This document shows positions 4,482-9,516 of a stretch of DNA of 64,000 nucleotides, piece after piece. The stretch is from Acidobacteriota bacterium (GTDB lineage Bacteria > Acidobacteriota > UBA890 > WLXD01): contig CBDBHB010000009.1 in assembly GCA_965205505.1 (NCBI GenBank), positions 1,184,001 to 1,248,000 of the forward strand. The letters are read 5' to 3'. The position numbers and the translations under genes are program-made. The notes under the pieces are model-generated. The model was not told the DNA's origin, did not search any database, and saw only the letters and a program-made list of their open reading frames with translations. Numbering within the stretch: the stretch's first letter is position 1; each line of letters opens with the position of its first letter.

Positions 4482-6203
4482 ATGAAGAAGCTGTGCGGGA
4501 TTTGTTGGGTGATCTTGGCTGTTGTGGGCTGCGCGCCGGACCAGCCCGGCGCGTCTTCGGTTGACCGTGTCTTCGTCGACGGCAGGGTTTGGACCGGCGA
4601 CGAGGAGCGACCGATCGCGCAGGCGTTGGCGGTCGCCGGGGACACGATCGTCGCGGTGGGCACAACGTCGGAGATCCGCGCTCTCGTTTCGTCTGATACG
4701 GAGGTTGTCGACCTCGCCGGGCGCCTTGTCGTGCCGGGATTTCAGGACTCTCACATGCACCCCCTGTTTCGAGCGGTTGATGGGCTCGTGCTCGACGGTG
4801 CGGAGACGTTGGCCGAGATCCAACGTCGGGTGTCGGAGTACGCCGGCAGCCACCCGGACGCGCCGTGGATCACCGGCATGGGCTGGGCCTATGCAGCCTT
4901 CCCGGACAACACTGTCGACAGGAAGTACATCGATGAGATCATGCTCGACCGGCCGGTGTATCTGACCTCACGCGATGGTCACATGGGGTTCGGTAACTCC
5001 AGGGCGCTGGCCGATGCCGGGATCACTGCCAATACTCCCGATCCTCCGAACGGACGCATTATCAGGGACGCGAGCGGAGAGCCCACCGGCGAGCTGCAGG
5101 AAGCGGCGCAAGGCCTGGTGAGATCTCAGATCCCGCCCCCGACGGCCGAGCAGCTGTACGACGACCTGATCGCCAACATGGCCGCGGCGGCGGCCGTGGG
5201 CCTGACTACCGTGCAGGACGCGGGCACGTCGTTGGATCAGGTTCCGCTGTATGAAAGGGCGGCCGCCGAAGGAGCGCTGAAGCTGCGTGTCCGACTCACG
5301 CCCCGTATCTCGTTCGATGGCGACGATGCGTCAGGCAACGTCGAGAGCGCCGAGGATTCGACCCCGCCCGTTCCTGCTGAGTACAAGGCGCTGCGTGACC
5401 GCCTGGCCGGGCCTCTGGTCGAGCTCAGCTCCGTGAAGGGCATGCTGGATGGAACGATCGACGCGAAGACGGCGGCGATGTTCGAGCCATACGTGGGTGG
5501 CGGCGGCTCGGGGCTCCCGTTCTGGGACCAAGATGAGCTCAATAGCATCGTGGCGTCTTACGACCGAGACGGATTTCAGGTCGTGCTGCATGCGATCGGC
5601 GACAGAGCGATCAACACGGCGCTGAACGCGTTCGAGTATGCGCGGGACGTCAACGGGACGTCGGGTCGGCGGCATCGAGTCGAACACGCGGAACTGCCCA
5701 GGCTGTCCGATCTCGAGCGGTTCAGAGAGCTCGGCGTGGTGGCATCGACTCAGCCGATGTTTGCGCATCCGGATGCCACCGTGCTCGAGAACTTCGCGGT
5801 GTTGCTGGGGCCCGAGAGGGCGCAGCATGCAGATTCCTTCTCGTTGTACGACGACAGTGGTGTAGTGCAGGTGTTCGGTAGTGACTGGCCGGTGTTCACG
5901 TTCGACGTGCTAAAGGGGATCGAGGTAGCCGTGACGCGGACGACCGACAGCGGCACGCCGGCCGGAGGCTGGTATCCGGACGGTCGTATCTCGGTCGATG
6001 CTGCGTTGCGCCACTACACCGTCGATGCCGCATACGGAAGTCTTCAGGACGACGTCAGGGGCACGCTGGCGCCCGGCATGTGGGCCGATTTCGTCGTGCT
6101 CTCGCGAGACATCTTCGAGATTTCCCCTACGGAGATTTCTGAGACGAAAGTGGTGCTGACTGTGATGGGCGGCGACGATACGTATCGAAGCGAGGCTTTC
6201 TAG
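4482..6203 (+). CDS. Amidohydrolase 3 family (YtcJ-like) lipoprotein
   Basis: PGFQDSHMH, HAIGDRA, HRVEH, FGSDWP, ADFVVL; VGC lipobox. Confidence 0.9.
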   Translation: MKKLCGICWVILAVVGCAPDQPGASSVDRVFVDGRVWTGDEERPIAQALAVAGDTIVAVGTTSEIRALVSSDTEVVDLAGRLVVPGFQDSHMHPLFRAVDGLVLDGAETLAEIQRRVSEYAGSHPDAPWITGMGWAYAAFPDNTVDRKYIDEIMLDRPVYLTSRDGHMGFGNSRALADAGITANTPDPPNGRIIRDASGEPTGELQEAAQGLVRSQIPPPTAEQLYDDLIANMAAAAAVGLTTVQDAGTSLDQVPLYERAAAEGALKLRVRLTPRISFDGDDASGNVESAEDSTPPVPAEYKALRDRLAGPLVELSSVKGMLDGTIDAKTAAMFEPYVGGGGSGLPFWDQDELNSIVASYDRDGFQVVLHAIGDRAINTALNAFEYARDVNGTSGRRHRVEHAELPRLSDLERFRELGVVASTQPMFAHPDATVLENFAVLLGPERAQHADSFSLYDDSGVVQVFGSDWPVFTFDVLKGIEVAVTRTTDSGTPAGGWYPDGRISVDAALRHYTVDAAYGSLQDDVRGTLAPGMWADFVVLSRDIFEISPTEISETKVVLTVMGGDDTYRSEAF

Positions 6204-6475
6204 TGGCCTGTAACAGATGATCGTTGCATATCGCAGATGGGATTTGCGGGTGAGATCAAGGCGCGGTGAGGAAGGCGATGCATTGGGCATCGTCGACGAG
6301 GCGCAACGCCGATATCGCCCGCAACCGCCCATCTGTCCGGAGGATGGCGGCGAAATCGGCCCGTCTGCGGCGTTGCTCCTCCTCGACGATGGGCAAACAT
6401 CGTCTCGTCGTCGCGCCTGGCATCCGGACCCATTTCGCCACCACGATATGCAACGATCATCTGTTACAGGCCACT
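6200..6475. mobile_element. Miniature inverted-repeat element, end type A
   Basis: About 30-bp TIR GTGGCCTGTAACAGATGATCGTTGCATATC at both ends; left CTAG supplies the amidohydrolase stop; right CTAG is split by the IS1111 element. Confidence 0.85.
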
Positions 6476-6489
6476 TCTATGAGAAGGCC

Positions 6490-6735
6490 TAGTTCGGTCA
6501 AGGGCAATGTGGTGCCCAGCGAAGAATCGATCTGCACGCCATGCTCCTATTCGCACTCTGGTGGACGAGGATTCAGGTCGTCCGGTGCATTCTGGGGTCC
6601 GTCCCGATTCGAGGCGCTGCAATCTAGCTGCCGAGCTCGAAGCTCGTAGTGACCTTCGCAGTCGCCCGGACCGGGCGGTCAGATCGATAACCGTTGGGTC
6701 GCGTCGCCCTACCGACCTCCTGGTTGCGGGTTAGT
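6490..6735 (-). ncRNA. Putative seekRNA/bridge RNA of the IS1111 element (exact ends unknown)
   Basis: Noncoding region downstream of the transposase; stem with internal loops GGUCACUA and GCAGCUAG matching the insertion site; AUAGGAG resembles the element end ATAGAAG. Confidence 0.75.
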
Positions 6736-7782
6736 TCATGCTGCTGAAACCTCTACAGGTGCGCGCAACGGTTCGTACTCGTCTCCACTCAGCCACAGTC
6801 GGTGCAGCACAACGGCGAGCTTACGGGCGACAGCAACTGCTGCCTTTTTGTTGCCATGAGGACCACCGCGTCCGGCCAGCTTGAGCCCCCAGCGTCTGAG
6901 CTCAGTATCGGGCCCGAAGGGGCCCAGGATGTAATGCGCCGAGCCCACCAACAGGCGTCGGAGCATTTTGTCGCCCGCCTTGGTTATTCGTAGCGCAGGG
7001 TCCTTGTCCCCCGACTGCCGTTTCTTCGGTCTCAGTCCCAGGTACGGGCCCACGGCTCTGGAGGTATTGAACCGCTCCGGCTCCTCGAGCGTCAGCACAT
7101 ACGCCAGTGCGGTCAGAGCTCCGACCCCGGCCACTTGCTGGAGCTGCTGTGTCTCCGGGTATCGCCCCTGGCACAGCTGCACGATCTGACGCTCGTATTG
7201 CTGGATGTTGCCCGTCAGCATGGCGATCGTTTCAAGCACCGGCTCGAGCGCTCCCTTGAGCCGCTCCGGTATGTGCTCTGGCGCGGTGCGCGCGAACGCC
7301 GGCGTCGAGCACCTGGGAATACGACAACCGGCCGACTTGACCGCACCACGCACATGGCTCACCAACTGCGTGCGGCTCTTTACCAGAGCATCTCGGCTCC
7401 GAATCACGGCTAGATCCGCTCGCGCTTGTCTGCCTCGATGCTGCACCGTCTTAAGCAGCTTTGGGTCCATTCTGCCCACTCGTGCCAGGTGCTCGGCATC
7501 CAACCGGTCGGTCTTGTCGTGCTCGCCATAGATCAGCTTCAGCCGCCTCGGGTTAGCCACCAGCACCTCATGACCCAGTTGCTTCAACTGCTCACTCATC
7601 CACGGCGAGTGCGTTCCAACCTCCAGCACTACTCGAGCGGGCTCCTCGCACCCGAACCGCCTCGCCAGCCCCTCCGGGCTCGTCCTCACCCGCCCTTCCT
7701 CCATCACCCTGCCCTTACTGTCGAGCACGCACATACGGCTGTACCGGTCGCTTACGTCCAGTCCAATCGTTACACTCCTCAT
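6736..7782 (-). CDS. IS110 family transposase/recombinase
   Basis: IGLDVS, LEVG, KTDRLDA (DEDD RuvC-like domain), GVG, LGLRP..QSG and ARKL motifs. Confidence 0.95.
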   Translation of the reverse strand: MRSVTIGLDVSDRYSRMCVLDSKGRVMEEGRVRTSPEGLARRFGCEEPARVVLEVGTHSPWMSEQLKQLGHEVLVANPRRLKLIYGEHDKTDRLDAEHLARVGRMDPKLLKTVQHRGRQARADLAVIRSRDALVKSRTQLVSHVRGAVKSAGCRIPRCSTPAFARTAPEHIPERLKGALEPVLETIAMLTGNIQQYERQIVQLCQGRYPETQQLQQVAGVGALTALAYVLTLEEPERFNTSRAVGPYLGLRPKKRQSGDKDPALRITKAGDKMLRRLLVGSAHYILGPFGPDTELRRWGLKLAGRGGPHGNKKAAVAVARKLAVVLHRLWLSGDEYEPLRAPVEVSAA

Positions 7783-7879
7783 CGGCCAACCTCCTTGGGC
7801 TTCGAGCCCGTTACGTTTGAAGAAACGTTTGCAGAGCCGTCAGGCTACTGCGTTCAGGAGGTTGGCCTTCTCATCTCAT

Positions 7880-7924
7880 CTAGCAGGCCTTGGCGGAAGT
7901 GTGGCGGACCTGGTTGCCTGCTAG
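7880..7924. repeat. Collapsed type-B miniature element
   Basis: CTAGCAGGCCTTGGCGGAAGTGTGG...GCCTGCTAG, similar to the ends of 10504-10782. Confidence 0.7.
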
Positions 7925-7962
7925 GTCTGTCGAATTGTTTTGATCATCCTTTGGAGCCACCG

Positions 7963-9516
7963 ATGCCCGGACATCACCGCACGATCGCGCTTGCCATATC
8001 AGCGTTGCTGGCGGGCTGCAGTGGCGGCACACAAAACCCGTTTGCGGACAAGCTCACCAACGTCGATCCATCGTGGGCGGTAACTGCCGACGAGGGTTAC
8101 GAGTGGGCGCTGGTCAAGGACGCCAACCTGCCGGCGATGACCGGTAGCCCGGAATGGAACAACTACGTCGGGTTCCTGGAAGACAAGCTCCTGGAGTACG
8201 GCGTCGTCGACATGCACCGCAACAGCTGGATGTACGACCGGTGGTCCACAACGAAGGACAACAGCGGCTGGTCGCTGGTTTCAGATGGGGAGCCGGTGCG
8301 AGTAGCTCACTACGCCATGAACTCCGGCAACACCGGCCCCGAGGGGATCACGGCCCAGATGATCTACTACGACCACGACAACCCGCCCGACTCCATCGAG
8401 GGCAAGATCGTGGTCTTTCCGACGCGGCCGCACCCGGAGCCGCCCTACGACGACTACTACATCAAGAACTTCACCTTCAACGACTACGAGTGGCGCGCCA
8501 ACGACGACACGTATTGGGAGCTATTCGAGTTCGTGCCACCGGAGTTTTCCATCACCTTCGATATCTGGTGGCAGCTGCGGCAGAGCTTGTGGCGGATCGC
8601 AGTAGAGGGAGGTGCGGCGGGTCACGTCACCGTCTACGACATGGCCTTCGAGCGCACTGAAGGACTGGTGGCCCGGCCGATACCACCCCTGTACCAGTTG
8701 CCGGGGCTGCAGCTGAGTCGCGAGGATGGCGCCAAGGTGATCGCGGACGCCAGGGCGGGCAAGACGGCGACGCTGCGGCTGGAGGCCACGGTCGAGGAGT
8801 CGGAGGCCTACCAGACGATCGCCTACCTTCCGGGTCGCGACTACGGCACACCTGACGACGAGCAGATCCTGCTGATCAACCACACCGACGGTCCGTCGAT
8901 TACGCAGGACAACGGTGCGCTGGGTCTGCTGGCGATCGTCAAGTACTTTTCCAATATCCCGCGGGAGCATCGGCCGCGAACGCTCACCGTCTTCCTCGAC
9001 AACCGCCACTACTATCCAGGACAGGAGCGCGCGGCGCATGAGGTGAGCTGGCTGGAGCGCCATCCCGAGGCCAAGGAGCCTCTGGTGGGCATCATTCAGG
9101 CCGAGCACATGGGCGAGAACGACTACCGCGAAGTGGACGGCGTGGTGGAGCCGGTGGGGCTGGCCGAGCAGTCGTATCTCTGGTCGCGCAACAACCCGGT
9201 GCTCATCGACGCCGCGATCGCCGCCGCCCAAGAGCATGGCTGGGAGCGCGTGCAGGTGGCGGTACCCGAGCGTCCGGGAATTAACGACGGCCTGCAGCAG
9301 GTGTGGTGGGGGGTCGGATCCCGAGCGCAGCGGGGCTGCGCCACGTGCCTCGATCTACCCGGCTACGGCCTCGGCGGGTTTCTTGGTCTGTATTGGACAA
9401 CCGCGTCGGGTATCGAGCGCTGGAACAAGGGTCTGTTCGAAGACCAGGCACACACGATGACCCAGCTGACTGGCGTATTGATGACCGCTGACCTGGATGA
9501 AATCCGGCCTGAGTAG
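7963..9516 (+). CDS. Lipoprotein, PA-domain/M28 peptidase-like
   Basis: LAGC lipobox; INHTDG..QDNG motif and PA-like segment; ORF-track upstream extension is antisense to the IS. Confidence 0.65.
   Translation: MPGHHRTIALAISALLAGCSGGTQNPFADKLTNVDPSWAVTADEGYEWALVKDANLPAMTGSPEWNNYVGFLEDKLLEYGVVDMHRNSWMYDRWSTTKDNSGWSLVSDGEPVRVAHYAMNSGNTGPEGITAQMIYYDHDNPPDSIEGKIVVFPTRPHPEPPYDDYYIKNFTFNDYEWRANDDTYWELFEFVPPEFSITFDIWWQLRQSLWRIAVEGGAAGHVTVYDMAFERTEGLVARPIPPLYQLPGLQLSREDGAKVIADARAGKTATLRLEATVEESEAYQTIAYLPGRDYGTPDDEQILLINHTDGPSITQDNGALGLLAIVKYFSNIPREHRPRTLTVFLDNRHYYPGQERAAHEVSWLERHPEAKEPLVGIIQAEHMGENDYREVDGVVEPVGLAEQSYLWSRNNPVLIDAAIAAAQEHGWERVQVAVPERPGINDGLQQVWWGVGSRAQRGCATCLDLPGYGLGGFLGLYWTTASGIERWNKGLFEDQAHTMTQLTGVLMTADLDEIRPE

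What the first reader, a model, noticed from the sequence alone, without database searches (positions are those of the whole stretch)
6474..7890. IS1111 element whose RNA guide loops match the junction between two miniature elements
Seen: removing 6476-7881 restores CAGGCCA-CT-AGCAGGCC, the single CTAG shared by a type-A end and a type-B end. The minus-strand noncoding region folds as GGCGACUGCGAA-[GGUCACUA]-CGAGC-UUCGA-GCUCG-[GCAGCUAG]-AUUGCAGCGCC (6666-6613). Loop 1 (6654-6647) matches the target top strand GGCCACTA at 7/8, and the mismatch allows a G-U pair. Loop 2 (6631-6624) matches the bottom strand CTGCTAG at 6/7. AUAGGAG (6550-6544) matches the element end ATAGAAG at 6/7. Established: IS110/IS1111 recombinases use bridge/seek RNAs, and some target REP repeats. 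Inference: this RNA-guided recombinase is programmed against ends of this genome's own repeat family.
Basis: partly seen in the sequence, partly recalled or inferred. Interest (0 to 1): 0.9.

Follow-up and report, generated by a model that had tools for sequence, protein, structure and literature searches.

The report
RNA-guided IS1111-type element targeting repeat ends
This is an ordinary though well-preserved member of the IS1111 group of RNA-guided jumping genes, whose built-in guide RNA matches the last ten bases of a small repeat element scattered through the host genome, so it lands there again and again.

Summary
Window 6476-7881 is a 1406-bp IS1111-type insertion sequence. It has a 348-aa DEDD transposase on the minus strand, 11-bp subterminal inverted repeats with 7-nt and 3-nt extensions, and a 260-nt non-coding region 3' of the gene.

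The genome holds 27 full copies. All 27 sit in one orientation at AGG(C/T)CACT|AG. Sixteen of these sites are ends of a ~270-bp miniature element.

Among 34 distinct relatives with different targets, the 5' loop strand covaries with the right flank and the 3' strand with the left flank (0 of 20,000 permutations reach the observed match). AUAGGAG is the homologue of a donor-end guide that tracks the right-end extension (47 of 47 concordant).

Two corrections. Only CUAG of loop 2 is matched generally. The "junction of two miniature elements" applies to 3 of 27 copies, so the programmed target is one repeat end, CTAGTGGCCT.

RNA guidance in IS1111 elements, and their targeting of REP and MITE repeats, is already published. 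This is a new member of a known kind. The RNA itself and any activity were not shown.

The parts
6476..7881 (-). Complete IS1111-type insertion sequence, 1406 bp
   Evidence: 27 full-length copies at 98.8% identity or more in the genome. The ends fit the 7/3 extension rule.
6736..7782 (-). Transposase/recombinase gene, 348 aa, intact in this copy
   Evidence: Pfam PF01548 (1.1e-17) and PF02371 (5.7e-17). NCBIfam NF033542 'IS110 family RNA-guided transposase', 205.5 bits against a cut-off of 140. GLRPKKRQSG motif read in the translation.
7875..7881 (-). Left-end 7-nt terminal extension, AGATGAG. Its first AG is the core dinucleotide.
   Evidence: Relatives have AGATGGG, AGATGGA or AGATGAG here.
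7864..7874 (-). Left subterminal inverted repeat, ATGAGAAGGCC
   Evidence: The same repeat is conserved in relatives from many phyla.
6479..6489 (-). Right subterminal inverted repeat, GGCCTTCTCAT
6476..6478 (-). Right-end 3-nt terminal extension, AGA
   Evidence: Relatives have GGA or AGA, and the choice covaries with the donor guide.
6612..6667 (-). Target-binding module of the bridge/seek RNA: outer stem, a 9x9 internal loop and an inner hairpin
   Evidence: MFE fold. Consensus fold of 34 relatives shows compensatory changes in the outer stem and inner hairpin.
6647..6655 (-). T guide, AGGUCACUA. Pairs with TAGTGGCCT: the right target half, the core and one further nt.
   Evidence: One U-G wobble at 6652. 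The one copy at AGGTCACT (C9:68587) matches perfectly.
6623..6631 (-). B guide, GCAGCU-AG-A. Same sense as the left target half plus the core.
   Evidence: Sits where the 3' loop strand of relatives sits. In this genome only CUAG is matched generally.
6544..6600 (-). Donor-binding module: GGACCCCAGA segment, stem GCAC (6588-6585) / GUGC (6556-6553) enclosing a hairpin, then AAUAGGAGC
   Evidence: Alignment and consensus fold.
6544..6550 (-). Donor guide AUAGGAG. Same sense as the circle junction ATAGA|AG (right end plus core).
   Evidence: Guide base 3 follows the first base of the right-end extension in 47 of 47 distinct relatives: G/G 42, A/A 5.
6591..6598 (-). Candidate second donor segment, ACCCCAGA. 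Poorly complementary to this element's own left end.
   Evidence: Relatives have ACCCCAnC or ACCUCAAC here, partly complementary to their left extension. This assignment is uncertain.
6496..6501 (-). TTGACC, a -35-like hexamer 26 nt from the right end. Candidate half of a circle-junction promoter.
   Evidence: TTGAC occurs in 45 of 45 non-redundant right-end tails, 39 of them 25-26 nt from the end. Function is inferred.
6468..6475 (+). Conserved target half AGGCCACT: the last bases of the type-A miniature element, abutting the right end of the IS
   Evidence: 27 of 27 copies have AGG(C/T)CACT here. 28 right-end junctions: AGTGGCCT 27, AGTGACCT 1.
7882..7883 (+). AG, the remainder of the split CTAG on the other side
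   Evidence: 25 of 27 copies. The two exceptions are explained.
6200..6475 (.). Type-A miniature inverted-repeat element whose end carries the target
   Evidence: Terminal inverted repeats of about 34 bp read. Genome-wide pairs are mostly about 268 bp.
7882..7924 (.). Type-B short palindromic repeat, CTAGCAGGCC...GCCTGCTAG. Its first CT is now supplied by the IS end.
   Evidence: CTAGCAGGCC occurs 350 times in the genome.

Best explanation
Window 6476-7881 is one of 27 copies of an IS1111-group insertion sequence. It carries a DEDD recombinase and, 3' of the gene, a two-module guide RNA (seekRNA / bridge RNA).

Inferred cycle, by analogy with ISEc11, ISPa11 and IS621:
1. The element excises as a circle.
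2. The abutted ends (..CATAGA|AGATGAG..) complete a promoter whose -35 box (TTGACC) lies in the right end.
3. The transcript yields recombinase and RNA.
4. In the target-binding internal loop, the 5' strand AGGUCACUA pairs with the top strand TAGTGGCCT, and the 3' strand GCAGCUAGA pairs with the bottom strand over CTAG.
5. A second module, ending in AAUAGGAGC, recognises the joined element ends.
6. Strand exchange occurs at the shared AG core (CT on the window plus strand), without target duplication and in a single orientation.

The 10-bp site CTAGTGGCCT is the tip of a miniature repeat element. That element is older than the IS in this genus and gives the IS over a hundred landing sites.

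Shown here: anatomy, site specificity, structural homology of the RNA, and guide-target and guide-donor covariation. Inferred: that the RNA is made, the circle, the promoter and present-day activity.
For: Protein:
- Pfam PF01548 and PF02371.
- NCBIfam NF033542, 205.5 bits against a cut-off of 140.
- D9, E54, D92 and D95, plus G249-L250...S257-G258, are invariant or nearly so in 28 homologues.

Ends:
- ATGAGAAGGCC / GGCCTTCTCAT with 7-nt and 3-nt extensions.

Sites:
- 27 of 27 full copies lie at AGG(C/T)CACT|AG in one orientation. 26 distinct sequences occur on the variable side.
- 111 further empty CTAGTGRCCT sites exist, against about 13 expected from composition.

RNA:
- A consensus fold of 34 distinct relatives has 20 pairs, 10 with compensatory changes.

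Covariation. Of 80 fetched relatives, 53 gave both ends by my rules, 42 of those plus this element had both scaffold anchors, and 34 had distinct loops.
- T guide against its own right flank (7 nt, core excluded): mean 6.03 matches, against 3.65 for other elements' flanks.
- B guide against its own left flank (6 nt): mean 3.68 against 1.53.
- 0 of 20,000 permutations reach either observed mean.

Donor guide:
- ATGGAAG goes with GGA ends and ATAGAAG or ATAGGAG with AGA ends: 42 + 5 concordant, 0 discordant.

Promoter half:
- A TTGAC box lies at a fixed distance from the end in relatives.

History:
- The transposase was not found in 4 of 4 congeneric genomes.
- The repeat end is present in 4 of 4 of them.

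Published mechanism: PMC11187229 (sections read) and PMC11208160 (section 12 and passages).
Against: - No direct evidence that the RNA exists. Rfam gave no hit at E<=1.
- Metatranscriptome contigs cover the IS, but the tool states this does not show transcription. No circle junction or empty-site joint was seen.
- The thermodynamic z-scores are weak (-1.9 and -2.1).
- The distal four bases of the B guide are not enriched at the 30 sites.
- The candidate 5' donor segment is poorly complementary to this element's own left end.
- 17 of 27 copies carry frameshifts.
- The transposase is at most 36% identical to plasmid-borne IS110-family elements. Placement in the IS1111 group therefore rests on architecture, not on a tree.
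Confidence: 0.9

Rival explanations
1. Both loop strands are programmed for the composite site created where a type-A end meets a type-B end, so the IS specifically marks junctions of two miniature elements.
For: In the window copy loop 2 matches the type-B side at 6 of 8. 3 of 27 copies sit at such junctions. Only 3 uninterrupted GGCCACTAGCAGGCC junctions remain in the genome, so 3 of 6 are occupied, against roughly one in five of all sites.
Against: 24 of 27 copies have unrelated sequence on that side. The distal B-guide positions match 40 of 120 times against about 34 expected. 3 of 6 is too few to distinguish from the overall occupancy.
Confidence: 0.07
2. Target choice is made by the protein recognising the repeat's inverted repeat or a DNA hairpin. 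The RNA complementarity would then be incidental.
For: Most sites lie in inverted-repeat ends that could form structures. The subterminal repeats are conserved across relatives and are probably read by protein.
Against: 11 of 27 sites are not type-A ends. Six of them share only AGG(C/T)CACT with the rest. Loops and flanks covary across 34 relatives with unrelated targets. Published reprogramming experiments on other family members point the same way (PMC11187229, section 10).
Confidence: 0.02
3. The boundaries are wrong. The conserved flank would be part of a larger composite element (IS plus miniature element) that moves as a unit by another mechanism.
For: 16 of 27 copies abut the same repeat type, and several share 30 nt or more of that flank.
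Against: The repeat occurs without the IS 111 times in this genome and in 4 of 4 congeners that lack the transposase. Six copies have non-repeat flanks. The ends obey the 7/3 rule shared with relatives that have other flanks.
Confidence: 0.01

Closest known systems
ISPa11, ISEc11, ISKpn4/ISPst6 (IS1111 family with experimentally shown seekRNA; Siddiquee et al. 2024, PMC11187229)
   Same: DEDD transposase of 330-350 aa. Subterminal inverted repeats with 7-nt and 3-nt extensions. Non-coding region 3' of the gene. A top-strand complement lying 5' of a bottom-strand complement, with the two overlapping at the insertion point. Orientation-specific insertion. ISPa11 also targets a host repeat (REP).
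   Different: Only distantly related: at most 36% aa identity to any plasmid-borne IS110-family element. No direct comparison with those named elements was possible because no reference sequences were held. Here the bottom-strand guide is used only over CUAG, and the site is the tip of a miniature element rather than a REP or attC. The RNA was not shown experimentally.
IS621 bridge RNA (IS110 group; Durrant et al. 2024, PMC11208160)
   Same: Two-module RNA. Each module reads both strands of target or donor around a shared core dinucleotide. The shorter guide is 4-7 nt. IS621 also lands in REP repeats (recalled, not read here).
   Different: In IS621 the RNA lies upstream in the left end, the strand order is reversed, and the subterminal repeats are 2-3 bp. 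Here the donor guides lie outside a stem rather than in a simple internal loop, as that paper notes for many IS1111 elements (section 12).
IS1111 and the QMITE2 element of Coxiella burnetii (Wachter et al. 2018, PMC5896051; abstract and passages read)
   Same: An IS1111-family element whose target lies in a miniature inverted-repeat element that predates strain divergence.
   Different: Different host, repeat and target sequence. That paper predates the RNA-guide model.
IS4321/IS5075 (Partridge & Hall 2003; seen only as a reference title in PMC11208160)
   Same: IS1111-family members that insert into the terminal inverted repeats of another mobile element.
   Different: Their targets are Tn21-family transposon ends on plasmids. 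No sequence comparison was made here.
ISPpu9 of Pseudomonas putida (PMC12288879; search-listing abstract only)
   Same: An IS110-family element in REP sequences with a small-RNA gene downstream of the transposase.
   Different: Not compared at the sequence level.

Membership tests
IS1111 group of the IS110 family | DEDD (RuvC-like) N-terminal domain plus a PF02371 C-terminal domain | tested here: met
   D9, E54, D92 and D95 are invariant in 28 homologues.
IS1111 group of the IS110 family | Transposase length 330-350 aa with a GL-P----S(T)G motif (PMC11187229, section 6) | tested here: met
   348 aa, with GLRPKKRQSG in the translation. G249, L250, S257 and G258 are conserved.
IS1111 group of the IS110 family | Subterminal inverted repeats of 11-13 bp, with 7-bp left and 3-bp right terminal extensions | tested here: met
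   AGATGAG + ATGAGAAGGCC ... GGCCTTCTCAT + AGA.
IS1111 group of the IS110 family | The long non-coding region lies downstream of the transposase gene | tested here: met
   260 nt downstream (6476-6735) against 99 nt upstream (7783-7881).
IS1111 group of the IS110 family | Insertion at one specific sequence, in one orientation, without target duplication | tested here: met
   27 of 27 copies. Only the 2-nt core is shared between end and target.
IS1111 group of the IS110 family | seekRNA: a top-strand complement 5' of a bottom-strand complement, overlapping at the insertion point | tested here: met
   By sequence and covariation. The bottom-strand match is limited to CUAG in this genome.
IS1111 group of the IS110 family | The RNA is produced, binds the transposase and is required for movement | not testable with these tools
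   One search shows the IS only in contigs of two RNA libraries, which the tool says is not proof of transcription.
IS1111 group of the IS110 family | Circular intermediate with abutted ends forming a promoter | tested here: inconclusive
   A conserved -35-like TTGAC lies 25-26 nt from the right end in 39 of 45 relatives' tails and in this element. No junction reads or contigs were seen in 4 runs.
IS1111 group of the IS110 family | Transposase clusters with IS1111 relatives in a phylogeny | not tested
   No ISfinder reference sequences were held. The best plasmid-borne relative is 36% identical.
IS110 group proper (IS621-type) | Bridge RNA encoded upstream in a long left end, with only 2-3-bp subterminal repeats | tested here: not met
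   The left end is 99 nt, the RNA modules lie 3' of the gene, and the repeats are 11 bp.
Any Rfam RNA family | Covariance-model match | tested here: not met
   0 matches at E<=1 in 5500-9000.

The most novel reading that the evidence does not exclude
This element belongs to a deep clade of IS1111-like elements that may not yet be characterised. The clade has the subterminal repeat ATGAGAAGGCC and an AG core, and its relatives occur in MAGs labelled Acidobacteriota, Actinomycetota, Gemmatimonadota, Chloroflexota, Planctomycetota and others. Its compact two-module RNA has an unusually well-conserved scaffold: GGYGACUGCG ... UKGCAGCRCC, then GCAC ... GUGCGrAUGGAAG.

In this genome the element works as an effectively one-sided guide system. 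Nine bases of one loop strand, one of them a wobble pair, plus CUAG of the other strand suffice for site choice. That lets it colonise the tips of a pre-existing repeat regardless of what lies beyond. Frameshifted copies that keep their RNA and ends may be moved in trans.
Probability: 0.4. Interest if true: 0.45.

Novelty: new member of a known kind. Interest (0 to 1): 0.35.

Why it matters
It gives a clean natural data set for an RNA-guided recombinase. There are 27 insertions in one genome and 34 distinct guide-target pairs in relatives.

The data show which guide positions are actually constrained in nature: the 9-nt strand and the core, but not the distal half of the short strand. They also show tolerance of a U-G pair at nearly every site.

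The conserved scaffold could help annotate such RNAs in uncultured bacteria, where Rfam finds nothing, and could offer new orthologues for programmable insertion.

For the host genome, it explains why this IS sits beside the miniature repeats. It also dates the arrival of the IS to after the repeat had spread in the genus.

Tried and rejected
- **Rfam.** The scan of 5500-9000 at E<=1 found nothing.
- **Thermodynamics.** Folding alone is weak support.
- **Covariation within the genome.** Impossible: the loops and stems at 6612-6667 are invariant in all 27 copies.
- **Perfect-match versus wobble sites.** One of 3 AGGTCACTAG sites is occupied, against roughly one in five AGGCCACTAG sites. The numbers are too small to conclude anything.
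- **Base just beyond CTAG.** Occupied sites have C 11, A 9, T 8, G 2 of 30 (window orientation). Empty sites have T 62, C 21, A 14, G 14 of 111. This is a shift away from T, but it does not cleanly follow the guide, and many empty sites are repeat-repeat contexts. I draw no conclusion.
- **5' donor segment.** Relatives show partial complementarity to the left extension (for example CTCAAC with AGTTGAG, ATTAAC with AGATAAT). Some positions covary in a non-Watson-Crick way, and this element's own segment fits poorly. The assignment is left uncertain.
- **Metagenome scan for closer relatives.** It gave 7 loci, none above 61% identity, and these were not used in any count.
- **Comparison with a plasmid-borne element.** Reading the non-coding region of L138 by eye showed no shared scaffold. 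It is too distant to align, so I abandoned it.
- **Host taxonomy.** A neighbouring amidohydrolase gave only hits of 68% identity or less, to Aminicenantes/Acidobacteriota-labelled MAGs. The host is left unnamed.
- **Sequencing runs.** Two RNA libraries hold contigs covering the IS at depths 18.5 and 16.8, against 0 on the next gene. With 27 DNA copies and possible DNA carry-over this is no proof of expression. No circle or empty-site joint was seen.
- **Rows dropped before counts.**
  - Of the 80 loci, 27 were dropped. Reasons: no subterminal repeat by my regular expression, a repeat shorter than 9 bp, or under 12 nt of flank at a contig end.
  - 11 of the remaining 54 (this element included) were dropped for failing my anchor expression. 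Several of these, such as L091, L093, L097 and L104, visibly have the scaffold and 8-9 of 9 guide matches.
  - Identical loop pairs were collapsed to 34.
- **Regular-expression errors.** Two of my scripts used wrong expressions and were redone.
- **Paper supplements.** None were seen. The target logos and ISfinder-wide RNA predictions in those supplements may already include members of this clade.
Full report
**What is there**

Window 6476-7881 holds a 1406-bp element. Its only long ORF (6736-7782, minus strand, 348 aa) carries the two domains of IS110-family recombinases: PF01548 at 1.1e-17 and PF02371 at 5.7e-17. It exceeds the curated cut-off of NCBIfam NF033542, "IS110 family RNA-guided transposase" (205.5 bits against 140).

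Read in the direction of the gene, the element begins AGATGAG-ATGAGAAGGCC and ends GGCCTTCTCAT-AGA. That is an 11-bp subterminal inverted repeat with a 7-nt extension on the left and a 3-nt extension on the right. This is exactly the rule given for the IS1111 family in PMC11187229 (introduction, read).

The long non-coding region (260 nt, 6476-6735) lies 3' of the gene, as in IS1111-type elements and unlike IS110/IS621-type elements (PMC11187229 section 6; PMC11208160 section 12).

**Copies and sites**

The window's genome (5.98 Mb in 9 contigs, 64% G+C) holds 27 full-length copies at 98.8% identity or more, plus fragments. Oriented alike, all 27 have AGGCCACT (26 copies) or AGGTCACT (1 copy) against the right end of the element. 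Of these, 25 have AG against the left end.

The two exceptions are informative. One copy has a 5-bp duplication at the left end, behind which the normal CT|AG site is found. The other has GCAGTT instead of ....CT.

A scan of end junctions gave 28 right-end junctions (AGTGGCCT 27, AGTGACCT 1) and 30 left-end junctions (T at -1 in 29, C at -2 in 28). The sequences on the variable side are distinct in 26 of 27 copies, so these are independent insertions.

The target is thus CT|AGTGGCCT in gene orientation. The AG is shared between the element's first two bases and the target, giving a 2-nt core and no duplication.

By conserved-side flank, 16 copies lie at the end of the type-A miniature element (...CTGYTACAGGCCACT), 5 at a variant repeat end (...CTGACTCAGGCCACT), and 6 elsewhere. 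A further 111 unoccupied CTAGTGRCCT sites exist, against about 13 expected from composition. Of these, 58 are type-A ends.

**The RNA**

Its energy is not remarkable (z -1.9). The match of the 9-mer AGGUCACUA (6655-6647) to the target is reached by 55 of 5000 dinucleotide shuffles of the non-coding region. On the window alone the case would be suggestive only.

**Comparative test**

A protein-profile scan of one genome per species returned 80 loci at 49-60% aa identity (best segment). They come from MAGs of many phyla.

In 53 of them my rules found both subterminal repeats, nearly always ATGAGAAGGCC, with enough flank. In nearly all of them the left end starts with AG, and in all but two the right flank does. 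The rest of both flanks differs from element to element.

The non-coding regions share a scaffold: GGYGACUGCG, 1-2 nt, about 9 variable nt, a hairpin, CG, 6 variable nt, AG-A, then UKGCAGCRCC. This element's loop strands occupy exactly the two variable slots.

For 34 distinct loop pairs, this element included, the results were as follows.
- The 5' slot is complementary to its own right flank (7 nt beyond the core) at a mean of 6.03 positions, against 3.65 for other elements' flanks.
- The 3' slot equals its own left flank (6 nt, fixed register) at 3.68 positions against 1.53.
- None of 20,000 permutations reached either observed mean.

Several relatives match 9 of 9, for example L066, L076, L086, L090, L093, L094, L097 and L104. 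The consensus fold of the 34 sequences has 20 pairs, 10 of which show compensatory changes in the outer stem, the inner hairpin and a second hairpin.

This is the architecture described for IS1111 seekRNAs: the top-strand complement lies 5' of the bottom-strand complement, and the two matches overlap at the insertion point (PMC11187229 section 9).

**Donor side**

About 55 nt 3' of the first module, relatives carry GUGCG-r-AUGGAAG-C. The heptamer equals the circle junction, meaning the last five bases of the right end plus the AG core. It follows the right-end extension:
- ATGGAAG with GGA in 43 loci;
- ATAGAAG with AGA in L068, L101 and L102;
- ATGGAGG in L067, whose left end starts GG;
- this element has AUAGGAG with AGA.

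Counting distinct non-coding regions, the third base is G/G in 42 and A/A in 5, with none discordant. Its one mismatch would be a G-T wobble.

A second conserved segment sits just 5' of the GCAC stem (ACCCCAnC in relatives, ACCCCAGA here at 6598-6591). It is partly complementary to the left extension in relatives but fits this element poorly, so I leave it open. Durrant et al. note that donor-binding bases of many IS1111 elements lie in a multi-loop rather than a simple internal loop, and this arrangement fits that description.

The 3' loop strand GCAGCUAG matches the type-B side of this particular copy at 6 of 8. But only 3 of 27 copies have a type-B end there. Over 30 left junctions, the four bases beyond CT match GCAG 40 of 120 times, against about 34 expected.

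In this genome the short guide is used only over CUAG. The effective specificity lies in one repeat end. That makes sense: the site is the tip of a repeat, and what lies beyond it is arbitrary.

One hint suggests the distal bases can contribute. The one copy lacking C at -2 has GCAG at all four distal positions.

**History and state**

The transposase was not found in the 4 other genomes of the genus that were searched. The type-A repeat end is present in all 4, at 2 to 84 matches. The repeat is therefore older, and the IS expanded in this lineage.

Only 10 of 27 copies keep the 348-aa frame. Twelve share a 4-bp deletion and five share a 1-bp deletion. The variants are mosaic among copies. Gene conversion, trans-mobilisation of defective copies, or polishing artefacts in a repeat-rich assembly could all contribute.

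All 45 non-redundant right-end tails carry TTGAC, 39 of them 25-26 nt from the end. In this element it is TTGACC at 6501-6496. This is consistent with the junction promoter described for the family, but it was not tested.

**Expression**

Contigs from two metatranscriptome runs of one study cover the IS at 95% identity or more. With 27 genomic copies and possible DNA in the libraries this is not evidence of an RNA. No circle junction or precise-excision joint was seen in those runs, in one other run kept as contigs, or in a thin sample of raw Hi-C reads.

**Comparison with what is known**

RNA-guided target choice in IS1111 and IS110 elements was published in 2024 (PMC11187229, PMC11208160). 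Several precedents cover the target type:
- ISPa11 targets REP repeats;
- IS1111 itself targets a REP inside the QMITE2 miniature element of its host (PMC5896051, abstract and passages);
- IS4321/IS5075 target transposon terminal repeats (title seen).

The literature search for IS1111 + MITE + target returned 38 papers, and none of the 12 listed describes this clade. I could not consult ISfinder or the papers' supplements.

The protein is at most 36% identical to any IS110-family gene on 72,556 plasmids. The clade is distant from the studied elements but shares every architectural criterion that I could test.

**Verdict**

It is a new member of a known kind. Interest is 0.35, and confidence in the explanation is 0.9.

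Noticed in passing
window 6200-6475: Type-A miniature inverted-repeat element with terminal repeats of about 34 bp, starting CTAGTGGCCTGTAACAG. Genome-wide, 23 paired copies were found by a crude scan: about 268 bp most often, with five of about 540 bp. The end motif occurs in all 4 congeneric genomes searched. No autonomous partner was looked for.
   Followed up: partly
window 7882-7924: Type-B short palindromic repeat (CTAGCAGGCC ... GCCTGCTAG). CTAGCAGGCC occurs 350 times in the genome (both strands). Loose ends of contigs in run X1 show similar units next to other type-A ends.
   Followed up: partly
27 IS copies in G000; lesions at window-equivalent 7514-7517 and 7373: Only 10 of 27 copies have an intact transposase frame. 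12 share a 4-bp deletion and 5 share a 1-bp deletion, yet all keep their ends and the RNA region. Variants are mosaic among copies. This suggests trans-mobilisation and/or gene conversion, or assembly polishing artefacts.
   Followed up: partly
G000 C6:424494 / C6:512432 and C6:11751 / C6:191362: Pairs of IS copies share 30 nt or more of one flank but differ on the other flank. This pattern is expected after recombination between IS copies, or from duplications or assembly joins.
   Followed up: no
G000 C9:2702236-2703637: This copy has a 5-bp tandem duplication at its left end, with the normal CT|AG site lying behind it.
   Followed up: no
G000 C8:914023-915426: The only copy whose left flank lacks C at -2 (GCAGTT). 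It matches the short guide at all four distal positions, a hint that those bases can compensate.
   Followed up: no
L077, L078, L081-L083, L085, L089 (relatives): A subgroup that shares the right-flank target AGCCGCG(A/C)(C/A). Its 5' loop strand ends in CGG rather than CU-N, so one core base would be mispaired.
   Followed up: no
L032, L035 (relatives): The left flank ends in AG and the 7-nt extension lacks the usual AG start. The left extension may therefore be 9 nt in these elements. With that shift their short guides fit better.
   Followed up: no
window 7964-9516: The IS left end lies about 80 bp upstream of the likely ATG (7964) of a gene of about 517 aa. The mechanical ORF list fuses it to IS sequence (7426-9516). 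Any effect of the insertion on this gene was not examined.
   Followed up: no
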